Of a DNA stretch of 64,000 nt, positions 1 through 54,688 are shown one piece after another. Location of the stretch: the NCBI RefSeq assembly GCF_054482525.1, contig NZ_JBTHVG010000003.1; one strand, 5' to 3'. The notes beneath the pieces were generated by a model. The model searched no databases. It saw only the letters and a program-made list of their open reading frames with translations, and was not told the origin of the DNA. Numbering within the stretch: position 1 is the first letter of the stretch; every line of letters starts with the position of its first letter. A program made the translations under genes and the position numbers. The stretch is from a plasmid.

Positions 1-13
1 TATTAATTACACT

Positions 14-352
14 ATGGCCAAAAACATACCCCTCTTACTTTATCAGTCCATTTTCCGGTGGAACTTAATCCTGGGGTGGCTAATCGTTTTTCTGCCCTAT
101 CTATTTGCCATGCTAGCAGATGGAATGTACCAGTGGAAATTGAAGAGGTACGTATTTGGTAAGGTTACAGTTCAGTTTTATCGTATTTGGTTTCGAGCAT
201 TTTGGGTGATCAGTGCTTTAACGATGGTCTACCTGGTCATGCCGAATATGTCACTATTTAACAATATCGCTCAACTTTTCCCACCAGTCGCTTTATTGAT
301 ACTGGGAATTGCATTGAATCGCTTGTGGTCTAACTTTCAAAAACTCATGTAA
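14..352 (+). CDS. small integral membrane protein (hypothetical)
   Basis: ORF with several hydrophobic segments; followed at 11-bp and 2-bp gaps by two same-strand genes, suggesting an operon. Lies 13 bp from window edge so promoter not visible. Confidence 0.4.
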   Translation: MAKNIPLLLYQSIFRWNLILGWLIVFLPYLFAMLADGMYQWKLKRYVFGKVTVQFYRIWFRAFWVISALTMVYLVMPNMSLFNNIAQLFPPVALLILGIALNRLWSNFQKLM

Positions 353-362
353 AGGTGGTCAG

Positions 363-1544
363 ATGTTAAGCAGTAAAAAAAGGAAGTCCCCTACAAATAT
401 CAAAGAATCGCTCAATGATAACGCTGACCGTTTTTATAAGATGTTTCGCATTCATACCACGGCAAAAGTTGCTATGTCGCTAATTGCCATGACCGCTGTA
501 GGGTTTTCTTTCTACAATCTTTACGAACAATGGCAGGACGCTGAAGGGAAGAAAGACCATATAGCTGTAATACGGATTTCTGGCGAGATGGGTACCGGCT
601 CGGAAACGGGCGATGGAACAGTGATCGCAACAGCTCTTGCCAAAGCTTACAATAATCCCCATGCCAAAGCAGTTATTATCGAGGCAGAGTCAGGTGGTGG
701 TGGTCCCTCTGACGCCATCATTATTTACCGCCAGATAAACGCGCTTAAAAACCACCAGCCACAGATTGAACGCGTATCAGATGCCGGTTGCTCTCTTTCA
801 TCTGTAGCCGCTGACAAGAGTAACAAAACCGGGAGCACAGAACGTGGCGATGAAGCACGGTCGAAGCAAAACTCCCTCGAAGTACTCTCCAGCGGTACCG
901 GTCGTTTTTTCTCTGATATCGCAGACTCATATAAACCAATCATCGTTAGTGTGAAAGGCATATGCGCATCCGCATGCTATTACGCGGTATCGCCCGCTGA
1001 TGCAATTTATGCCGACAGTAATGCCCTGATCGGTTCTATCGGTGTGCGTATGGACCACTGGAATCTGTCAGAGATCATGAGCACAGTAGGCGTCAAGAAT
1101 GAGCCCCTTACGGCCGGTGAGTTCAAAGATGCTCTTGACCCCTTCCACCCATTGTCCGATTCAACGAGGGAGTTCATGCAGAAGGAGATCCTGAACACGA
1201 TGCATGAAAAATTTATAACTGATGTTGAACTTGGACGGGGTAAAAAGCTTCTCTCGCGTCATGATGCCGATGCTGTTTCTCTCTATTCAGGCCGTGTATG
1301 GCCAACACCTCAGGCAGTTAAGTACGGCCTGGTGGATGGAGATCTTACGTCAGTAGAGATCCGTACACGTCTTTCAAAAATGTACTCCACTGACACGTTC
1401 AAAAACTACAATGAGCCTCATCGTAATCTCCGTTCTGCACTCGGCATGCTGATGAGCCTGTCTTCAAATATTGAGAGCCTTACCGGTACCACTACCCGCT
1501 TGGTAGAATCTGTTAATGCCACCAGCTACCCCTCTGTGAGGTAA
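363..1544 (+). CDS. S49-family (SohB/SppA-like) serine peptidase
   Basis: Translation aligns by eye to SohB/SppA core ('KGICASACYYAVS...ALIGSIGV', 'PQAVKYGLVDGDLTS'); N-terminal hydrophobic anchor; ~55-aa insertion before the Ser motif. Confidence 0.5.
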   Translation: MLSSKKRKSPTNIKESLNDNADRFYKMFRIHTTAKVAMSLIAMTAVGFSFYNLYEQWQDAEGKKDHIAVIRISGEMGTGSETGDGTVIATALAKAYNNPHAKAVIIEAESGGGGPSDAIIIYRQINALKNHQPQIERVSDAGCSLSSVAADKSNKTGSTERGDEARSKQNSLEVLSSGTGRFFSDIADSYKPIIVSVKGICASACYYAVSPADAIYADSNALIGSIGVRMDHWNLSEIMSTVGVKNEPLTAGEFKDALDPFHPLSDSTREFMQKEILNTMHEKFITDVELGRGKKLLSRHDADAVSLYSGRVWPTPQAVKYGLVDGDLTSVEIRTRLSKMYSTDTFKNYNEPHRNLRSALGMLMSLSSNIESLTGTTTRLVESVNATSYPSVR

Positions 1545-1545
1545 C

Positions 1546-2277
1546 ATGGATGCTTTCAATCTGCTGTGGAGCATTACGGGGGTAGCTTTCATTATCCTTA
1601 TTTTCGTCGTGTTGCTGTGTCTGTTGGGTTTTATGACCTCTGCCATAGCGGAACGGCGGACTGCAAAGGCAATTGAATCTGGGCTTCCTGAAGAAGCTCA
1701 GGGGCTACTTAGTGATCTCACCTTTCAGTTGTCGGCTCATAGCACTACTCAGGTTGATCACATTCTCGTAGCCCCACATGGTATATACGTCATAGAGCAG
1801 AAAAACTACGTAGGCAAGCTCTACGGTACTCTGGAGGAAAGCCACTGGCGGAAATGGACTCAGTCCCGAACCCTCAAGTTGCAGAACCCGTTTAAGCAAA
1901 ACCAGGGGCACATCAGGGCTATTCAGTCTGCTCTTAAGGCTAGAGAACTGGAATGTATCAATGTCGTCATCATAAACGGACGTTGTAAGTTTGATGGCAT
2001 CAAGCCGGAATGGTTATGTATGGGGATGGACGATTTTATCCATAAAGTCAAACAACGACGAGGGCTACGGTTGTTCACACCGGAGTCTGTTCAGCACATC
2101 TGTTCGGTGTTGAAGTCAACAAGGAAGTCGCCAGGGCTCTATACGGACCTTACTCATATTCACAACATAACGACAAAGTACAAAGCCCCGATGAAATTCG
2201 AGCAACGAGTAACATACATTCTGCTCAACTTTATCCATTATCTGTGGGCAAGTCTGTTCACTAAGCAGAAGCCTTAG
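1546..2277 (+). CDS. NERD (nuclease-related domain) protein, membrane-anchored
   Basis: N-terminal TM helix followed by NERD-like signature 'VDHILVAPHGIYVIEQKNYVG'. Confidence 0.55.
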   Translation: MDAFNLLWSITGVAFIILIFVVLLCLLGFMTSAIAERRTAKAIESGLPEEAQGLLSDLTFQLSAHSTTQVDHILVAPHGIYVIEQKNYVGKLYGTLEESHWRKWTQSRTLKLQNPFKQNQGHIRAIQSALKARELECINVVIINGRCKFDGIKPEWLCMGMDDFIHKVKQRRGLRLFTPESVQHICSVLKSTRKSPGLYTDLTHIHNITTKYKAPMKFEQRVTYILLNFIHYLWASLFTKQKP

Positions 2278-2563
2278 CGCTCTATCATTGGTAAGGCTGT
2301 AAAATGTCTGCAAAAGGCCCCATCGGTAAATTGTTGGGGCTTTTTCTTTGCGTAGTTCTGATACGGTTTATCCTGTGGAGCATTATGGCCACCAGCCAGC
2401 TGGTGACTGGCCAACGCTTTGTATGACGTAGCCTACTCAGGGCAGGCTATTTTAGAGGGACCGATTTTTATCCGGGCTAATTTAGAAAGAGATAATTTGA
2501 ACTTAGGCGGGCTGACCACCAGCAGAGAGGTAAATCACTAGCCGGTGATATTGACAGAAGTCG

Positions 2564-2926
2564 TCAGGGGTTTAACGCCGGAATATTTTGCCAGGCCTCC
2601 TGCAAGGTCTGCAAGACTTCTACAAGTGATAGTGACGGCCACAGGACTGTTTCCGTCATTATCACTCCAGGTGGCTCGCACTCTACTGGTACCAGAATTA
2701 AAACAACACGAGTTCCTTTTACCTGGTAGGCAAGGTTTACTGCCGGTTGGCGGTAGGAGGCCAGTACACCCTCACCATATTGAGCAGGGTTACTTGCCCA
2801 GTTCCGCACCATTGCATACACCTGAGGCATATACCGACTATCCAGATCCCCTTTGGGCCGTCTGAACGGCACGATTTCTTCTGAGCGGTAGGTGGTCGTT
2901 GTTGTATTGGTTGTCATCTTTGTCAC
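2564..2926 (-). CDS. hypothetical protein
   Basis: ORF, co-directional with neighbours; Thr-rich N-terminus. Confidence 0.3.
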   Translation of the reverse strand: MTKMTTNTTTTTYRSEEIVPFRRPKGDLDSRYMPQVYAMVRNWASNPAQYGEGVLASYRQPAVNLAYQVKGTRVVLILVPVECEPPGVIMTETVLWPSLSLVEVLQTLQEAWQNIPALNP

Positions 2927-3444: not shown

Positions 3445-3623
3445 GTAATAGTTAATTTCAGATCCTTCTTCCAGTTACGCTTCAGTATAAAACCGATACC
3501 CTCTAATTCAGCATCCTTCACGTTTAATACGCTTCACTTTAAGGCAGGGCTTTTCGGTTGATATGAATTCTTTTTCCGGTTGCTGGACATGGGTTTCATC
3601 CTGATAGTTAAAATTGCAGGCTA

Positions 3624-3926
3624 TCAGTCACCACCACCACCTCCTCCTCCTCCTCCTCCACCGCCACCATCACAACCACCAGCTATGCTATTTTCACCAT
3701 TACAATCACCTCCGAGGGGGTTCAAATGGCTGCTCCCCTGTAGATGGTGTCCTTGCCAGATCGAACCCGAACCAGCGCCTCCTGAGCGTCTTTGCTTGCC
3801 CTGAGGCAATTGTGCAGGCTCACCAGCACCGGCGGTCCCAAAAATGTCCCGGGCAATTTTATAAAGAAGGTAAAAAGGTACGCCCAGCATCATAAAAAAG
3901 ATTCCTGAAAATATTACACGTTCCAT
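3624..3926 (-). CDS. Gly-rich hypothetical protein with C-terminal poly-Gly tail
   Basis: ORF with hydrophobic N-terminus and terminal Gly run encoded by a (CCN)n tract. Confidence 0.3.
   Translation of the reverse strand: MERVIFSGIFFMMLGVPFYLLYKIARDIFGTAGAGEPAQLPQGKQRRSGGAGSGSIWQGHHLQGSSHLNPLGGDCNGENSIAGGCDGGGGGGGGGGGGGD
3628..3680. repeat. (CCN)n trinucleotide simple-sequence tract
   Basis: caccaccaccacctcctcctcctcctcctccaccgccacca read directly; codes poly-Gly on minus and poly-Pro on plus. Confidence 0.8.
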
Positions 3927-12199: not shown

Positions 12200-13538
12200 C
12201 ATAAGCGCTAACTTAAGGGTTGTGGTATTACGCCTGATATGATTTAACGTGCCGATGAATTACTCTCACGATAACTGGTCAGCAATTCTGGCCCATATTG
12301 GTAAGCCCGAAGAACTGGATACTTCGGCACGTAATGCCGGGGCTCTAACCCGCCGCCGCGAAATTCGTGATGCTGCAACTCTGCTACGTCTGGGGCTGGC
12401 TTACGGCCCCGGGGGGATGTCATTACGTGAAGTCACTGCATGGGCTCAGCTCCATGACGTTGCAACATTATCTGACGTGGCTCTCCTGAAGCGGCTGCGG
12501 AATGCCGCCGACTGGTTTGGCATACTTGCCGCACAAACACTTGCTGTACGCGCCGCAGTTACGGGTTGTACAAGCGGAAAGAGATTGCGTCTTGTCGATG
12601 GAACAGCAATCAGTGCGCCCGGGGGCGGCAGCGCTGAATGGCGACTACATATGGGATATGATCCTCATACCTGTCAGTTCACTGATTTTGAGCTAACCGA
12701 CAGCAGAGACGCTGAACGGCTGGACCGATTTGCGCAAACGGCAGACGAGATACGCATTGCTGACCGGGGATTCGGTTCGCGTCCCGAATGTATCCGCTCA
12801 CTTGCTTTTGGAGAAGCTGATTATATCGTCCGGGTTCACTGGCGAGGATTGCGCTGGTTAACTGCAGAAGGAATGCGCTTTGACATGATGGGTTTTCTGC
12901 GCGGGCTGGATTGCGGTAAGAACGGTGAAACCACTGTAATGATAGGCAATTCAGGTAATAAAAAAGCCGGAGCTCCCTTTCCGGCACGTCTCATTGCCGT
13001 ATCACTTCCTCCCGAAAAAGCATTAATCAGTAAAACCCGACTGCTCAGCGAGAATCGTCGAAAAGGACGAGTAGTTCAGGCGGAAACGCTGGAAGCAGCG
13101 GGCCATGTGCTATTGCTAACATCATTACCGGAAGATGAATATTCAGCAGAGCAAGTGGCTGATTGTTACCGTCTGCGATGGCAAATTGAACTGGCTTTTA
13201 AGCGGCTCAAAAGTTTGCTGCACCTGGATGCTTTGCGTGCAAAGGAACCTGAACTCGCGAAAGCGTGGATATTTGCTAATCTACTCGCCGCATTTTTAAT
13301 TGACGACATAATCCAGCCATCGCTGGATTTCCCCCCCAGAAGTGCCGGATCCGAAAAGAAGAACTAACTCGTTGTGGAGAATAACAAAAATGGTCATCTG
13401 GAGCTTACAGGTGGCCATTCGTGGGACAGTATCCCTGACAGCCTACAAAACGCAATTGAAGAACGCGAGGCATCGTCTTAACGAGGCACCGAGGCGTCGC
13501 ATTCTTCAGATGGTTCAACCCTTAAGTTAGCGCTTATG
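12200..13538 (+). mobile_element. IS186 (IS4 family), complete
   Basis: Transposase recognised from memory as IS186; terminal inverted repeats cataagcgctaacttaaggg / cccttaagttagcgcttatg; flanked by duplicated GC-rich gggggttgccccc target. Ends +/- a few bp. Confidence 0.85.
12249..13367 (+). CDS. IS186 transposase
   Basis: 372-aa ORF 'MNYSHDNWSAILAHIGKPEELD...' with IS4-family 'YRLRWQIELAFKRLK' motif. Confidence 0.85.
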   Translation: MPMNYSHDNWSAILAHIGKPEELDTSARNAGALTRRREIRDAATLLRLGLAYGPGGMSLREVTAWAQLHDVATLSDVALLKRLRNAADWFGILAAQTLAVRAAVTGCTSGKRLRLVDGTAISAPGGGSAEWRLHMGYDPHTCQFTDFELTDSRDAERLDRFAQTADEIRIADRGFGSRPECIRSLAFGEADYIVRVHWRGLRWLTAEGMRFDMMGFLRGLDCGKNGETTVMIGNSGNKKAGAPFPARLIAVSLPPEKALISKTRLLSENRRKGRVVQAETLEAAGHVLLLTSLPEDEYSAEQVADCYRLRWQIELAFKRLKSLLHLDALRAKEPELAKAWIFANLLAAFLIDDIIQPSLDFPPRSAGSEKKN

Positions 13539-44354: not shown

Positions 44355-46055
44355 ATCGGAGAACCACGGCAGCCTGGCGGCTGCAAATTGAAAACCGCCC
44401 CGGTTCGTCCTGTTGTTGCCGCACGCCCCGCAGAATATGTATGCTCTGAGGACCTGTTTTATTAAGGACTCATCCCCTTATGTTGACCCGCAAAAGTATC
44501 GATACAGTTCTGCTCTCTGTTGGTGCTGAGAAGCTCTCACAACGAGAATGGGACTGGATGAAAATGCTCAAACCCATGGACCCACCACCTGCGATGGTGA
44601 CGACCTCCATCCTGAAGCGCCGTGGCGATACAGCAGCCCTTACCCTGCTACAGGATACCGGGGTTTAATCCATCCTCATGTTGTCCGGTTTTACTCCCCG
44701 CCCTCTGAAACGTCTGTTCACAGCCAACCAGTGCTGGACGTCCTTCCTGGATGCGGGCGGTCTGCGCGATATCGAGGTTGAAGCCGTCACCAAAATGCTG
44801 GCCTGCGGCACACGGATACTGGGTGTAAAAGAGTTCGGGTGTGATAACCCGGACTGTCAGCACGTAAAGTACCTGACCAACTCATGCGGCAGCCGTGCCT
44901 GCCCGTCCTGCGGAAAGAAGGCCACAGACCTGTGGACAGCAACACAGCTGAATCGTCTTCCTGACTGCGACTGGGTACATCTGGTCTTCACCCTGCCGGA
45001 CACGCTGTGGCCGGTGTTCGAAAGCAACCGCTGGCTGCTGAATGACGTGTGCCGTCTGGCGGTGGAGAATCTGCTGTATGCCGCCCGAAAACGGGGGCTG
45101 GAACCCGGTATCTTCTGCGCCATCCACACGTATGGCCGTCGTCTCAACTGGCATCCGCATGTACATGTGTCTGTAACCTGTGGAGGTCTGAATAAGCATG
45201 GTCAGTGGAAAAAGCTGAGCTTCCTGAAAGACGCGATGCGTTCACGGTGGATGTGGAATATGCGGCAGCTGCTTCTGAAAGCGTGGTCAGAGGGGATGGC
45301 AATGCCGGAGTCGTTGTCACATATCACGACGGAATCACAGTGGAGAAGCCTGGTGCTGAAATCCGGCGGAAAATACTGGCATGTGTACATGTCGAAGAAG
45401 ACAGCCGGAGGGCGGAATACGGCACGCTACCTGGGTCGTTATCTGAAGAAGCCACCAATAGCGGCTTCCCGACTGGCTCATTACAACGGAGGGGCAAGCC
45501 TGAGCTTCCGTTACCTGGACCACAAAACGGGAGAAACGGCGACGGAAACGCTGACACAGCGTGAGCTGGTCGCGAGGCTGAAACAGCACATCCCGGAGAA
45601 GTTTTTTAAGATGGTGAGGTACTTCGGGTTCCTTGCCAACCGTGTGTGTGGAGAGAAGCTGCCGCAGGTGTACCGTGCACTGGGGATGGATAAACCGGAA
45701 CCAGTGGCGAAAGTGTGCTATGCACAAATGGTGAAACAGTTCCTGAGTCGTGACCCGTTCGAATGCGTGCTGTGTGGCTGCCGGATGGTATACCGCCGGG
45801 CCATTGCGGGGCTGAATGTATCAGGGCTGAAGAAAAACGCGCGGGATATCAGTCTACTGAGGTATATGCCGGCCTGACACAGGCTAAGTGTGCCCGGGAA
45901 TCGGTGAAAGTATAAAAAACAGCCTGTTACGGTATAAAAATCGACCATACAGAGAGGGAAACCACCGGAGTGGTGGGAAAAGCAGAAAGGCTCACGTGGC
46001 ATAAGGCGTGGACAATGGTATCGACTGGTTTTTCAATTTCCTATACGTCAAGCCT
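44355..46055 (+). mobile_element. IS91-family insertion sequence (IS1294-like); ends approximate
   Basis: Rolling-circle transposase gene plus small upstream ORF; no inverted repeats; right end near '...tttttcaatttcctatacgtcaag'. Interrupts the iteron field. Confidence 0.6.
44678..45877 (+). CDS. IS91-family rolling-circle (HUH/Y2) transposase
   Basis: N-terminal Zn-binding 'CQHVKYLTNSCGSRACPSCG', HUH-like 'WHPHVHV', C-terminal Tyr-containing region. Confidence 0.75.
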   Translation: MLSGFTPRPLKRLFTANQCWTSFLDAGGLRDIEVEAVTKMLACGTRILGVKEFGCDNPDCQHVKYLTNSCGSRACPSCGKKATDLWTATQLNRLPDCDWVHLVFTLPDTLWPVFESNRWLLNDVCRLAVENLLYAARKRGLEPGIFCAIHTYGRRLNWHPHVHVSVTCGGLNKHGQWKKLSFLKDAMRSRWMWNMRQLLLKAWSEGMAMPESLSHITTESQWRSLVLKSGGKYWHVYMSKKTAGGRNTARYLGRYLKKPPIAASRLAHYNGGASLSFRYLDHKTGETATETLTQRELVARLKQHIPEKFFKMVRYFGFLANRVCGEKLPQVYRALGMDKPEPVAKVCYAQMVKQFLSRDPFECVLCGCRMVYRRAIAGLNVSGLKKNARDISLLRYMPA

Positions 46056-53764: not shown

Positions 53765-53918
53765 GGGCAAATCCATCTGATGCTCAACAGTACATTCGTT
53801 ATGTTCAGAGCAATGTCTGCAATAAGTAAAGGATCCGCTAAAGAAAACCGGTCTGAAATATCGCTGATAGTCCTAGCAACACTTGGAATCGCATCACCAT
53901 TCAGGTAATGACTCCAAC

Positions 53919-54422
53919 TTATTGATAGTGTTTTATGTTCAGATAATGCCCGATGACTTTGTCATGCAGCTCCACCGATTTTGAAAACGACAGCGACTTC
54001 CGTCCCAGCCGTGCCAGGTGCTGCCTCAGATTCAGGTTATGCCGCTCAATTCGCTGCGTATATCGCTTGCTGATTACGTGCAGCTTTCCCTTCAGGCGGG
54101 ATTCATACAGCGGCCAGCCATCCGTCATCCATATCACCACGTCAAAGGGTGACAGCAGGCTCATAAGACGCCCCAGCGTCGCCATAGTGCGTTCACCGAA
54201 TACGTGCGCAACAACCGTCTTCCGGAGCCTGTCATACGCGTAAAACAGCCAGCGCTGGCGCGATTTAGCCCCGACGTATCCCCACTGTTCGTCCATTTCC
54301 GCGCAGACGATGACGTCACTGCCCGGCTGTATGCGCGAGGTTACCGACTGCGGCCTGAGTTTTTTAAGTGACGTAAAATCGTGTTGAGGCCAACGCCCAT
54401 AATGCGGGCGGTTGCCCGGCAT
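53919..54422 (-). CDS. insB: IS1 InsB
   Basis: 167-aa ORF overlapping insA end. Confidence 0.85.
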
Positions 54423-54616
54423 CCAACGCCATTCATGGCCATATCAATGATTTTCTGGTGCGTACCGGGTTGAGAAGCGGTGTAAGTGAACTGCAGTTGC
54501 CATGTTTTACGGCAGTGAGAGCAGAGATAGCGCTGATGTCCGGCGGTGCTTTTGCCGTTACGCACCACTCCGTCAGTAGCTGAACAGGAGGGACAGCTGA
54601 TAGAAACAGAAGCCAC
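54341..54616 (-). CDS. insA: IS1 InsA
   Basis: 91-aa '[43 protein letters not shown]...'. Confidence 0.9.
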
Positions 54617-54688
54617 TGGAGCACCTCAAAAACACCATCATACACTAAATCAGTAAGTTGGCAGCATCACCCACCATTCATTGTCGCA

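What the first reader, a model, noticed from the sequence alone, without database searches (positions are those of the whole stretch)
14..2277. Tight three-gene plus-strand operon: small membrane protein, S49 (SohB-like) peptidase, membrane-anchored NERD nuclease-domain protein
The three ORFs are separated by 11 bp and 2 bp and run opposite to the neighbouring accessory genes. A membrane-anchored protease next to a membrane-anchored nuclease-domain protein is the kind of sensor/effector pairing seen in abortive-infection or defence modules, and I do not recognise this combination as a described system. The peptidase keeps the Ser motif but carries a ~55-aa insertion. The operon starts 13 bp from the window edge, so its promoter and any upstream partners are not visible.
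Basis: inference. Interest (0 to 1): 0.65.

Follow-up and report, generated by a model that had tools for sequence, protein, structure and literature searches.

The report
Tail of IncHI2 plasmid DNA-transfer operon
These are not a stand-alone defence operon but the last three genes of the well-known eight-gene conjugative DNA-transfer operon of IncHI2 resistance plasmids. The first gene is cut by the window edge, and the protease and nuclease genes are conserved accessory genes whose function has not been tested.

Summary
The three ORFs exist, but the first (14-352) is only the C-terminal half of a 220-aa TraJ/DtrJ (DUF4400) gene cut by the window edge. Window 1-2700 is 99-100% identical to about 970 IncHI2 plasmids. 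There it ends an eight-gene operon: mobI(traH), orf, MobH relaxase (traI), coupling protein (traG/traD), orf, traJ, S49 peptidase, NERD protein, then a terminator hairpin.

R27 (IncHI1) and IncHI3 plasmids have the same operon. A distinct S49 subfamily always sits directly after dtrJ in 11 MOBH lineages, down to 29% identity. NERD follows it only in the IncHI-like clade, with one decayed relic, and close NERD relatives were never seen without S49.

The S49 protein is SppA-like with an invariant Ser203/Lys255 dyad, probably periplasmic. Its roughly 60-aa insertion is clade-specific, fast-evolving and largely disordered. The NERD protein is membrane-tethered, cytoplasmic, with an invariant D71/E84/K86 motif and a restriction-endonuclease fold.

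No defence-system model matches beyond the NERD domain itself. The opposite topologies argue against protease-to-nuclease signalling. Best reading: accessory, non-essential conjugation genes of unknown function. The locus is already known, so interest is modest, but a nuclease guarding the conjugative pore is not excluded.

The parts
2..352 (+). 3' part of traJ/dtrJ (DUF4400, DtrJ-like inner-membrane partner of the coupling protein). Only the C-terminal ~116 codons are in the window; the true start lies 311 bp upstream of it.
   Evidence: The frame is open from base 2. The 112-aa ORF is an exact suffix of the 220-aa protein at L001:11690-12352. Pfam PF14348 matches the full protein at E 1.6e-12.
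353..362 (+). 10-nt spacer carrying the Shine-Dalgarno sequence AGGTGG (353-358) for the S49 gene.
   Evidence: Read directly from the sequence.
363..1544 (+). Dtr-operon-linked S49 (SppA-type) serine peptidase, 393 aa. It has an N-terminal signal-anchor at about residues 36-56 (nt 468-530). The catalytic residues are Ser203 (nt 969-971) and Lys255 (nt 1125-1127).
   Evidence: Pfam and NCBIfam. S203 and K255 are invariant in 22 homologues and align to SppA Ser147/Lys199. The AlphaFold2 model matches SppA entries 3rst/4kwb at TM 0.85-0.88.
753..938 (+). Clade-specific insertion in the S49 protein (residues ~131-192).
   Evidence: It is present only in homologues with at least 42% identity, and varies in length and sequence. 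pN is 0.385 against 0.129 for the core. Residues 132-156 have pLDDT below 50, followed by a helix at 157-177.
1546..2277 (+). Membrane-tethered NERD (PD-(D/E)xK) nuclease-fold protein, 243 aa. The TM segment is residues 12-30 (nt 1579-1635). The active-site motif is D71 (nt 1756-1758), E84 (nt 1795-1797) and K86 (nt 1801-1803).
2313..2351 (+). Probable intrinsic terminator of the operon: a hairpin (AAAGGCCCCA...UGGGGCUUU) followed by a U-rich tract.
   Evidence: The RNA fold centroid keeps the hairpin at 2313-2344. The 101-nt context has z = -1.93. The simple consensus scan missed it because of its 12-nt loop.

Best explanation
The feature is the distal end of the Tra1 DNA-transfer (Dtr) operon of an IncHI2 conjugative plasmid. 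The operon order is mobI(traH), orf, MobH relaxase (traI), coupling protein (traG/traD), orf, traJ/dtrJ, S49 peptidase, NERD protein, terminator.

Shown here:
- The identity and boundaries of the genes.
- Their deep synteny across MOBH elements.
- Retained catalytic residues, predicted folds and purifying selection.

Inferred:
- The S49 protein is an inner-membrane-anchored, periplasm-facing SppA-like Ser/Lys protease that co-evolves with DtrJ and the coupling protein.
- It most likely provides envelope proteostasis for the conjugation machinery. That would mean degrading leader or pro-peptide remnants, or mis-assembled membrane components, around the TraG-TraJ translocon.
- Redundancy with host SppA/SohB would explain why it is dispensable.
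- The NERD protein is a cytoplasmic PD-(D/E)xK nuclease tethered to the inner membrane. It was added once in the IncHI-like clade.
- It is made only when the relaxase and coupling protein are made, and probably acts on nucleic acid at the membrane near the conjugative pore.

Both are accessory modulators of transfer or of its side-effects. They are not core transfer genes and not an autonomous defence system.
For: Identity and context:
- Window 1-2700 is 100% identical to IncHI2 plasmids, with 240 E. coli records and 973 PLSDB records at 99% or more.
- The same eight-gene operon is annotated in pMCR_W5-6, in R27 (IncHI1) and in an IncHI3 Klebsiella plasmid.

S49 linkage to dtrJ:
- I built my own HMMs and scanned 100 loci.
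- Every S49 scoring 357 bits or more lies directly after DtrJ in a mobI-MobH-T4CP-DtrJ array. This covers 11 lineages at 29-100% identity.
- All 72 weaker S49 hits are stand-alone chromosomal genes with no MOBH genes within 10 kb.

NERD linkage to S49:
- NERD homologues with 35% identity or more all follow S49.
- At 32% identity or less they are solitary genes in unrelated contexts.

Conservation:
- The catalytic dyad and the nuclease motif are invariant.
- Folds are confirmed.
- pN/pS between IncHI2 and IncHI1 is 0.17/0.77 for S49 and 0.24/0.81 for NERD, against 0.12/0.74 for DtrJ.

Operon structure and parallels:
- Spacers are 10 nt and 1 nt, with no internal promoter or terminator signal and a terminator hairpin after NERD.
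- IncC plasmids pair their own S49 gene with a DsbA gene, which also points to a periplasmic proteostasis role.
Against: - No experiment on either gene could be found or read.
- The substrate of the protease and the target of the nuclease are pure inference.
- The S49 anchor is only moderately hydrophobic, so the topology is predicted rather than shown.
- IS insertions inactivate S49 or NERD in a few circulating plasmids. The genes are therefore dispensable for maintenance and could be nearly neutral passengers, although strong purifying selection argues against that.
- H-pilin maturation is already attributed to signal peptidase plus a TraF-type S26 peptidase (bioRxiv 10.1101/2024.12.30.630807). 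An obvious pilin-processing role for S49 is therefore not required.
- S. aureus SmdA has the same TM+NERD architecture and is a cell-division factor (PMC9040797). A NERD fold does not guarantee nuclease activity.
Confidence: 0.6

Rival explanations
1. Autonomous defence or abortive-infection module. The membrane protease senses infection and activates or releases the membrane-bound NERD nuclease, which degrades invader or host DNA.
For: - NERD domains occur in defence proteins. There are weak local matches to PglW, MkoA and MADS6.
- NERD homologues with 35% identity or more were never seen without S49.
- The NERD-domain protein ZwsA is a proven anti-phage effector.
Against: - No PADLOC system model is matched, and the hits cover only the NERD domain of 1400-1600-aa proteins.
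- The pair is never seen outside the Dtr operon, and S49 occurs without NERD in at least 6 lineages.
- The S49 domain is predicted periplasmic and the NERD domain cytoplasmic. Only 11 NERD residues face the periplasm.
- No promoter of its own was detected.
Confidence: 0.08
2. Split functions. S49 is a conjugation housekeeping protease. NERD is a portal guard that destroys nucleic acid entering through the pilus and coupling-protein route, either from pilus-specific phages or from redundant incoming plasmid DNA, in cells that express the transfer genes.
For: - NERD is tethered to the inner membrane and co-transcribed with the coupling protein.
- IncH-pilus-specific ssRNA phages exist: Hgal1 and pilH-alpha (PMC3561173).
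- The NERD-domain protein ZwsA cleaves the genomes of the pilus-dependent RNA phages PP7 and MS2 (bioRxiv 10.64898/2026.04.06.716636).
- From my own knowledge, unverified here: RNA entry of F-specific phages of the MS2/R17 group needs the coupling protein TraD.
Against: - There are no data on substrate.
- ZwsA is a large VHS-DUF647-NERD-S4 protein, unlike this 243-aa protein.
- IncHI exclusion is already assigned to EexA/EexB (PMC11493245).
- NERD was lost in Photorhabdus heterorhabditis and is IS-disrupted in some plasmids.
Confidence: 0.15
3. S49 is a maturation protease for the pilin or another Tra protein, for example a plasmid-encoded counterpart of the unknown host peptidase that trims RP4 TrbC. 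On this view it is a mating-pair-formation factor rather than a DNA-transfer factor.
For: - In three short-clade elements, S49 is followed within 130-190 bp by a pilin-like ORF and traL-traE-traK-traB.
- TrbC-type pilins need extra proteolysis (PMC10838148).
- TrhA loses its leader and five C-terminal residues.
Against: - S49 is always in the Dtr operon, glued to dtrJ, not in the pilin operon. In IncHI plasmids the pilin operon (Tra2) is tens of kb away.
- C-terminal trimming and cyclisation are attributed to a TraF-type S26 peptidase.
- An IS5 insertion in S49 persists in circulating plasmids.
- From my recollection of the Lawley 2002 abstract, not readable here: only traH, traI, traG and traJ on this side of oriT were essential.
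Confidence: 0.1
4. The peptidase is an ordinary housekeeping sohB/sppA orthologue, and the genes are passengers with no link to conjugation.
For: It belongs to family S49. Related stand-alone chromosomal genes with a CAS[GA]C motif exist in many Gammaproteobacteria and Betaproteobacteria.
Against: - It scores below the NCBIfam cut-offs for SppA (121 against 155 bits) and SohB (55 against 259 bits).
- The plasmid-borne subfamily is cleanly separated by score, 357 bits or more against 275 or less.
- That subfamily is invariably adjacent to dtrJ in 11 lineages.
Confidence: 0.03

Closest known systems
Tra1 Dtr operon of IncHI1 plasmid R27 (traH-traI-traG-traJ region; Lawley et al. 2002)
   Same: Gene-for-gene orthologous: mobI/traH, orf, MobH relaxase, coupling protein, orf, DUF4400 TraJ, S49, NERD. 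Order, strand and spacing are the same. Protein identities are 72% for S49, 63% for NERD and 82% for TraJ.
   Different: It belongs to a different Inc subgroup (IncHI2), and synonymous sites between the two are saturated. The S49 and NERD orthologues carry no gene names or assigned functions in the annotation.
B. subtilis SppA (36K-type signal peptide peptidase; PDB 3RST, 4KWB)
   Same: Single-domain S49 fold (TM 0.85-0.88) with an aligned Ser/Lys dyad, an N-terminal membrane anchor and a C-terminal tail.
   Different: - Sequence identity is only about 21%, and the score is below the SppA equivalog cut-off.
- It has a ~60-aa insertion and a CASAC motif in place of AASGG.
- It is encoded in a conjugation operon.
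- Oligomeric state and substrates are unknown.
DtrJ/TraJ-TraD module of IncC plasmids, SXT/R391 and Rts1 (MOBH)
   Same: All have a DUF4400 membrane protein immediately after the coupling-protein gene, and that protein is essential for DNA transfer in those elements (PMC10838148; Hancock 2021 as cited).
   Different: Those elements have no S49 or NERD gene after dtrJ. IncC carries a 26%-identical S49 elsewhere, next to a dsbA gene.
ZwsA (Zowangsin), a NERD-domain RNA endonuclease active against pilus-dependent RNA phages
   Same: It has a NERD domain with an acidic/ExK catalytic pocket, and it defends against phages that enter via pili.
   Different: ZwsA is a large soluble VHS-DUF647-NERD-S4 protein from genomic islands. 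Here the protein is a 243-aa TM-anchored NERD in a conjugation operon. No sequence comparison was possible.
SmdA of Staphylococcus aureus (TM + NERD-like cell-morphology determinant)
   Same: It has a short extracellular N-terminus, one TM helix, a cytoplasmic NERD-like domain and a functionally important conserved C-terminal His. H204 is nearly invariant in the family studied here.
   Different: SmdA lacks several canonical NERD residues and is a chromosomal, essential division factor. The protein here keeps the D...ExK motif and is plasmid-borne.
NERD modules of BREX PglW, Mokosh MkoA and MADS6
   Same: They share the N-terminal NERD domain (E 1.9e-6, 1.5e-5 and 8.3e-11).
   Different: Those are 600-1600-aa kinase or helicase fusions within multi-gene systems. 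None of their partner genes is present here.

Membership tests
Peptidase family S49 (SppA/SohB clan) | Match to the Pfam Peptidase_S49 profile | tested here: met
   PF01343 matches residues 188-338 at E 5.8e-28.
Peptidase family S49 (SppA/SohB clan) | Ser nucleophile and Lys general base at the SppA positions | tested here: met
   S203 and K255 are invariant in 22 homologues. In the profile alignment to 3rst/4kwb they align with SppA_Bs Ser147 and position 199, which is Ala in the crystallised mutant.
Peptidase family S49 (SppA/SohB clan) | SppA-like (ClpP/crotonase-type) fold | tested here: met
   The AlphaFold2 model has pLDDT 78.6. Foldseek top hits are 3rst/4kwb at E 1e-16 to 1e-17 with target TM 0.85-0.88.
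Peptidase family S49 (SppA/SohB clan) | Orthology to SppA or SohB (NCBIfam equivalog cut-offs) | tested here: not met
   TIGR00706 scores 121.2 bits against a cut-off of 155.45. SohB PRK11778 scores 54.9 against 259.
Peptidase family S49 (SppA/SohB clan) | N-terminal membrane anchor with an extracytoplasmic catalytic domain | tested here: inconclusive
   The hydrophobic segment at about residues 36-56 has hydropathy of about 1.5 by my hand calculation, below the 1.6 threshold used. There are 9 K/R residues before it and 2 after. AlphaFold2 places a long helix at 13-61. No experimental topology is available.
Peptidase family S49 (SppA/SohB clan) | Proteolytic activity | not testable with these tools
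   This needs biochemistry.
NERD / PD-(D/E)xK nuclease superfamily | Match to the Pfam NERD profile | tested here: met
   PF08378 matches residues 33-142 at E 1.9e-21.
NERD / PD-(D/E)xK nuclease superfamily | Conserved D...(D/E)xK catalytic motif | tested here: met
   D71, E84 and K86 are invariant in the subfamily. E84 and K86 are invariant, and D71 is at least 90% conserved, in 60 wider relatives.
NERD / PD-(D/E)xK nuclease superfamily | Restriction-endonuclease-like fold | tested here: met
NERD / PD-(D/E)xK nuclease superfamily | Nuclease activity and substrate (DNA or RNA) | not testable with these tools
   No solved or characterised close homologue exists; a profile search of PDB sequences found nothing.
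MOBH (IncHI Tra1) DNA-transfer operon | Same-strand array of MobI, MobH/TraI_2 relaxase, TraD/TraG coupling protein and DtrJ | tested here: met
   The array is seen in identical plasmids upstream of the window, in R27 and IncHI3, and in 8 further lineages.
MOBH (IncHI Tra1) DNA-transfer operon | The first ORF is the DUF4400/DtrJ-like gene | tested here: met
   PF14348 matches the full-length protein at E 1.6e-12, and the window ORF is its exact suffix.
MOBH (IncHI Tra1) DNA-transfer operon | Requirement of S49 and NERD for transfer | not testable with these tools
   The R27 mutagenesis paper (PMC134963) is not held. Natural IS knock-outs show only that the genes are dispensable for plasmid maintenance.
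Known anti-phage defence systems (PADLOC-DB) | Full-length match of the proteins to a system's models | tested here: not met
   DtrJ (112-aa window fragment only) and S49 have no hits. NERD has only local hits of 80-140 residues to the 1403-aa PglW and 1607-aa MkoA profiles.
Known anti-phage defence systems (PADLOC-DB) | Presence of the system's partner genes, or location in a defence island | tested here: not met
   The neighbours are tra genes upstream and small plasmid-backbone ORFs downstream.
ZwsA-type NERD RNA endonuclease | VHS-DUF647-NERD-S4 multidomain architecture | tested here: not met
   Only a TM helix plus an extended NERD fold is present in the 243 aa.

The most novel reading that the evidence does not exclude
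The membrane-tethered NERD protein is a portal-guarding nuclease built into the conjugation operon. It sits beside the TraG-TraJ translocon and destroys nucleic acid that comes in through the pilus and coupling-protein route. Targets would be H-pilus-specific RNA phages such as Hgal1 and pilH-alpha, or redundant incoming plasmid strands. This would offset the vulnerability that expressing a conjugative pilus creates. The Dtr-linked S49 protease would control the machinery from the periplasmic side. Together they would be a self-defence layer hard-wired into a transfer system.
Probability: 0.12. Interest if true: 0.7.

Novelty: already known. Interest (0 to 1): 0.3.

Why it matters
IncHI plasmids are major carriers of mcr-1, mcr-9, carbapenemase and heavy-metal resistance genes, so their transfer machinery is of practical interest.

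The locus itself is ordinary backbone. The analysis does define two gene subfamilies with no function reported in any paper I could search:
- An S49 protease locked to dtrJ across MOBH elements.
- A membrane-tethered NERD nuclease found only in the IncHI-like clade.

Both are under purifying selection. They are cheap, well-defined targets for deletion and point-mutant studies of transfer efficiency, donor envelope stress, exclusion and sensitivity to male-specific phages.

For the scan, the main lesson is that a window edge turned the end of a long conjugation operon into an apparent novel three-gene module.

Tried and rejected
- **PADLOC and NCBIfam on the three proteins.** No system or equivalog was found; only NERD-domain and sub-threshold SppA hits appeared. 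NCBIfam on full-length DtrJ and the two unnamed operon ORFs found nothing useful.
- **Literature.** The R27 Tra1 and Tra2 mutagenesis papers are not held. Searches for S49 or NERD with IncHI, plasmid or conjugation found no functional study. One search on R27 locus numbers returned only irrelevant papers.
- **Phage origin of S49.** Rejected. Only weak partial hits to head-maturation proteases were found.
- **The CASAC double-cysteine motif as a special feature.** Rejected. Chromosomal relatives have CASGC.
- **Co-occurrence of the S49 insertion, the long form of the orf between the coupling-protein gene and dtrJ, and NERD as evidence of functional coupling.** Rejected as non-independent, because all three mark one clade. 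The Photorhabdus lineage keeps the insertion but has lost NERD.
- **Context of distant solitary NERD relatives.** Uninformative.
- **Consensus promoter and terminator scan.** No internal signals were found, and the scan missed the terminal hairpin, which folding recovered.
- **dN/dS.** It could not be computed because synonymous sites are saturated, so pN and pS are reported instead.
Full report
**1. Observation**

The three plus-strand ORFs are present at 14-352, 363-1544 and 1546-2277. The spacers are 10 nt and 1 nt, each preceded by a Shine-Dalgarno sequence. The genes downstream run on the opposite strand.

Pfam confirms Peptidase_S49 at residues 188-338 (E 5.8e-28). It confirms NERD at residues 33-142 (E 1.9e-21).

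The first ORF is miscalled. Its reading frame is open back to window base 2. Its 112 residues are the exact C-terminal suffix of a 220-aa DUF4400/DtrJ-like protein whose start lies 311 bp upstream of the window. The window edge therefore created the appearance of a small gene and of a three-gene operon.

**2. What it is**

Window 1-2700 is 99-100% identical to large plasmids of E. coli, Salmonella and Enterobacter. These comprise 240 E. coli records and 973 PLSDB records at 99% or more, almost all typed as conjugative. The whole 64-kb window is colinear with the IncHI2 plasmid pMCR_W5-6 apart from IS differences, and it contains repHI2.

In that plasmid the three genes end an eight-gene, same-strand, tightly packed operon. 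Its order is:
- mobI
- an unnamed orf
- the MobH relaxase
- the TraD/TraG coupling protein
- a 369-aa orf
- the DUF4400 gene
- S49
- NERD

The IncHI1 prototype R27 has the same eight genes in the same order. So does an IncHI3 (IncHI1B/FIB) Klebsiella plasmid, with S49 at 48% and NERD at about 35% identity. This is the Tra1 DNA-transfer region of IncH plasmids. There mobI corresponds to traH, the relaxase to traI, the coupling protein to traG, and DUF4400 to traJ (naming as used).

No internal promoter or terminator signal was found. A hairpin plus U-tract at 2313-2351 is a plausible operon terminator.

**3. Co-occurrence**

I collected S49 homologues and looked up their contigs. I also scanned one genome per species for the most conserved S49 peptides. 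I then scored all 100 loci with HMMs built from the operon proteins.

The result is a clean split:
- Every S49 scoring 357 bits or more lies immediately downstream of a DtrJ gene within a mobI-orf-MobH-T4CP-orf-DtrJ array.
- This covers 11 lineages: IncHI1, IncHI2, IncHI3, a Buttiauxella-type element, Photorhabdus, Motilimonas, two Vibrio elements and three metagenomic elements. Identities run down to 29%.
- All 72 loci with weaker S49 hits (275 bits or less) are stand-alone chromosomal genes of Thiotrichales, Chromatiales, Neisseriales and others. None has MOBH genes within 10 kb.

The peptidase is therefore neither a housekeeping sohB nor a free-standing module. It is a distinct subfamily locked to dtrJ.

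NERD behaves differently:
- It follows S49 only in the IncHI-like clade, where S49 identity is 42% or more.
- It is absent from all short-clade elements. There S49 is followed by replication genes, or by a pilin-like ORF and traL-E-K-B.
- In Photorhabdus heterorhabditis only a 13-codon relic of its catalytic motif remains.
- NERD homologues with 35% identity or more were never found without S49. At 32% or less they are solitary genes in unrelated contexts.
- In PLSDB the counts match almost one to one. The IncHI1 identity band holds 268 records for each gene, and the 99%-or-more band holds 956 for S49 against 967 for NERD.

**4. The proteins**

*S49.* A profile of 22 homologues matches B. subtilis SppA (3rst/4kwb) at E of about 1e-42. 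The invariant Ser203 (motif CASAC) aligns with the SppA nucleophile. The invariant Lys255 aligns with the SppA general base, which is Ala in the crystallised mutant.
- The AlphaFold2 model has pLDDT 78.6 and superposes on SppA at TM 0.85-0.88.
- The protein scores below the NCBIfam cut-offs for SppA and SohB.
It exists only in the IncHI-like clade, varies in length and sequence, evolves three times faster than the core (pN 0.385 against 0.129), and is modelled as a disordered loop plus one helix.
- A lysine- and arginine-rich N-terminus followed by a moderately hydrophobic helix predicts an N-in signal anchor and a periplasmic catalytic domain, as in SppA.

*NERD.* The protein has a strong TM helix at residues 12-30. 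There are no basic residues before it and three after, which predicts a cytoplasmic nuclease domain.
- D71, H72, E84 and K86 are invariant in the subfamily. E84 and K86 are invariant in 60 wider relatives.
- It belongs to a very large family of small TM+NERD proteins, with 945 cluster representatives at E of 1e-10 or less.

*Selection.* Between IncHI2 and IncHI1, synonymous sites are saturated (pS 0.74-0.84). Non-synonymous divergence is low: T4CP 0.105, DtrJ 0.12, S49 0.17 and NERD 0.24. All are therefore under purifying selection.

A few circulating plasmids carry IS5 in S49, or ISApl1 or IS3 in NERD. Both genes are therefore dispensable for maintenance.

**5. How it most likely works**

Shown: the genes are co-oriented, translationally close members of the relaxase/coupling-protein operon, and they encode an apparently active protease and an apparently active nuclease.

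Inferred for S49: it is a periplasm-facing SppA-type protease dedicated to the conjugation machinery. It would clear leader or pro-peptide remnants, or mis-assembled membrane components, around the TraG-TraJ translocon. It would be partly redundant with host SppA/SohB.
- The IncC arrangement, where S49 sits next to DsbA, fits a periplasmic proteostasis theme.
- H-pilin maturation is already attributed to signal peptidase and a TraF-type S26 peptidase. I therefore rank a dedicated pilin-processing role lower.

Inferred for NERD: it is a membrane-tethered nuclease acting on nucleic acid at the inner membrane when transfer genes are on.

A direct protease-to-nuclease switch is unlikely, because the two catalytic domains are predicted to lie on opposite sides of the membrane.

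From my own recollection of the abstract of Lawley et al. 2002: nine of 14 Tra1 ORFs were essential, and on this side of oriT only four were (traH, traI, traG, traJ). That implies the S49 and NERD orthologues were not essential for transfer. The paper is not held, so I could not verify this.

**6. Defence reading and the most novel reading**

PADLOC gives no system. The only hits are local NERD-domain similarities to PglW and MkoA, and in NCBIfam to MADS6. None of their partner genes is present. The autonomous Abi or defence module is therefore not supported.

A narrower idea remains open:
- IncH pili are receptors for ssRNA phages Hgal1 and pilH-alpha (PMC3561173).
- From my own knowledge, RNA entry of some F-specific phages needs the coupling protein.

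A NERD nuclease tethered next to the coupling protein could therefore guard the conjugative portal. I give this about 12%.

Against over-reading the fold, the same TM+NERD architecture in S. aureus SmdA serves cell division.

**7. Comparison and novelty**

The locus is orthologous to the R27 and R478 Tra1 region. It is annotated in thousands of records as 'DUF4400 / S49 family peptidase / nuclease-related domain-containing protein'. As a genomic feature it is already known.

What I could not find in the searchable literature:
- Any functional study of the S49 or NERD genes.
- Any statement that an S49 subfamily is an obligate neighbour of dtrJ across MOBH elements.

**Verdict**
- Observation: partly confirmed.
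- Defence-module interpretation: not supported, apart from correct domain calls.
- Status: known backbone with two uncharacterised accessory genes.
- Interest: 0.3.

Noticed in passing
window 12201-13537: A 1.3-kb insertion relative to pMCR_W5-6 carries a 372-aa IS4-family (IS186-like) transposase ORF at 12249-13367. The IS186 assignment comes from my recognition of the protein sequence and was not tested.
   Followed up: partly
window 44361-46048: A 1.7-kb insertion relative to pMCR_W5-6 carries a 399-aa ORF (44678-45877) that looks like an IS91-family (IS1294-like) transposase. The family was assigned by eye.
   Followed up: partly
window 53904-54671 and 61561: A 768-bp insertion with InsA-like (91 aa) and InsB-like (167 aa) ORFs on the minus strand is an IS1 copy absent from pMCR_W5-6. 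Conversely, the window lacks the ISApl1 copy that pMCR_W5-6 has at the position matching 61561.
   Followed up: partly
window 3624-3926 (minus strand): A 100-aa ORF ends in a run of 13 glycines, which reads as a proline run on the plus-strand ORF at 3580-3804. It is annotated as a hypothetical protein in identical plasmids.
   Followed up: no
window ~2500-36000 (minus strand): There is a long one-directional array of small hypothetical genes. It includes hok, DUF3085, DUF957, an HNH endonuclease, a 794-aa PAPS-reductase-family protein, DNA methyltransferases and a RelE/ParE toxin. It converges on the end of the Dtr operon. It was not analysed.
   Followed up: no
L018 11162-11200 (Photorhabdus heterorhabditis): A 13-codon relic of the NERD catalytic motif (85% identical to residues 78-90) lies just after an intact S49 gene. 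NERD has therefore decayed in this lineage while S49 and its insertion persist.
   Followed up: yes
L094, L095, L096 (E. coli IncHI2 plasmids pE94-1, pSA186_MCR1, pPSS-08-2_1): These are natural knock-outs. IS5 splits the S49 gene, and ISApl1 and an IS3-family element truncate or split the NERD gene. Whether these plasmids still conjugate is unknown.
   Followed up: partly
L006 11120-11461, L008 11180-11518, L022 11101-11490: In short-clade MOBH elements, S49 is followed after 130-190 bp by a 112-129-aa ORF with a signal-peptide-like, pilin-like sequence, then by traL-traE-traK-traB. There the Dtr and pilus operons abut.
   Followed up: partly
L009 6935-7894 (IncC plasmid of Vibrio cholerae): IncC plasmids carry a 26%-identical S49 peptidase with the canonical GASGG motif. 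It lies immediately upstream of a DsbA-family gene, far from dtrJ.
   Followed up: partly
L001 10594-11703 and 4617-5354 (upstream of the window): Two conserved operon ORFs have no Pfam or NCBIfam family: 369 aa between the coupling-protein gene and traJ, and 245 aa between mobI and the relaxase gene. The 369-aa one exists in a long form (363-369 aa, IncHI-like clade) and a short form (190-233 aa) that do not cross-match with my HMMs.
   Followed up: partly
protein P0001 (1.9-kb Logan contig): A 509-aa predicted protein carries both DtrJ-like and S49 Pfam domains at 100% identity to the window. It is probably a frameshift or assembly artefact that fuses the two adjacent genes. It is a single-member cluster.
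   Followed up: no
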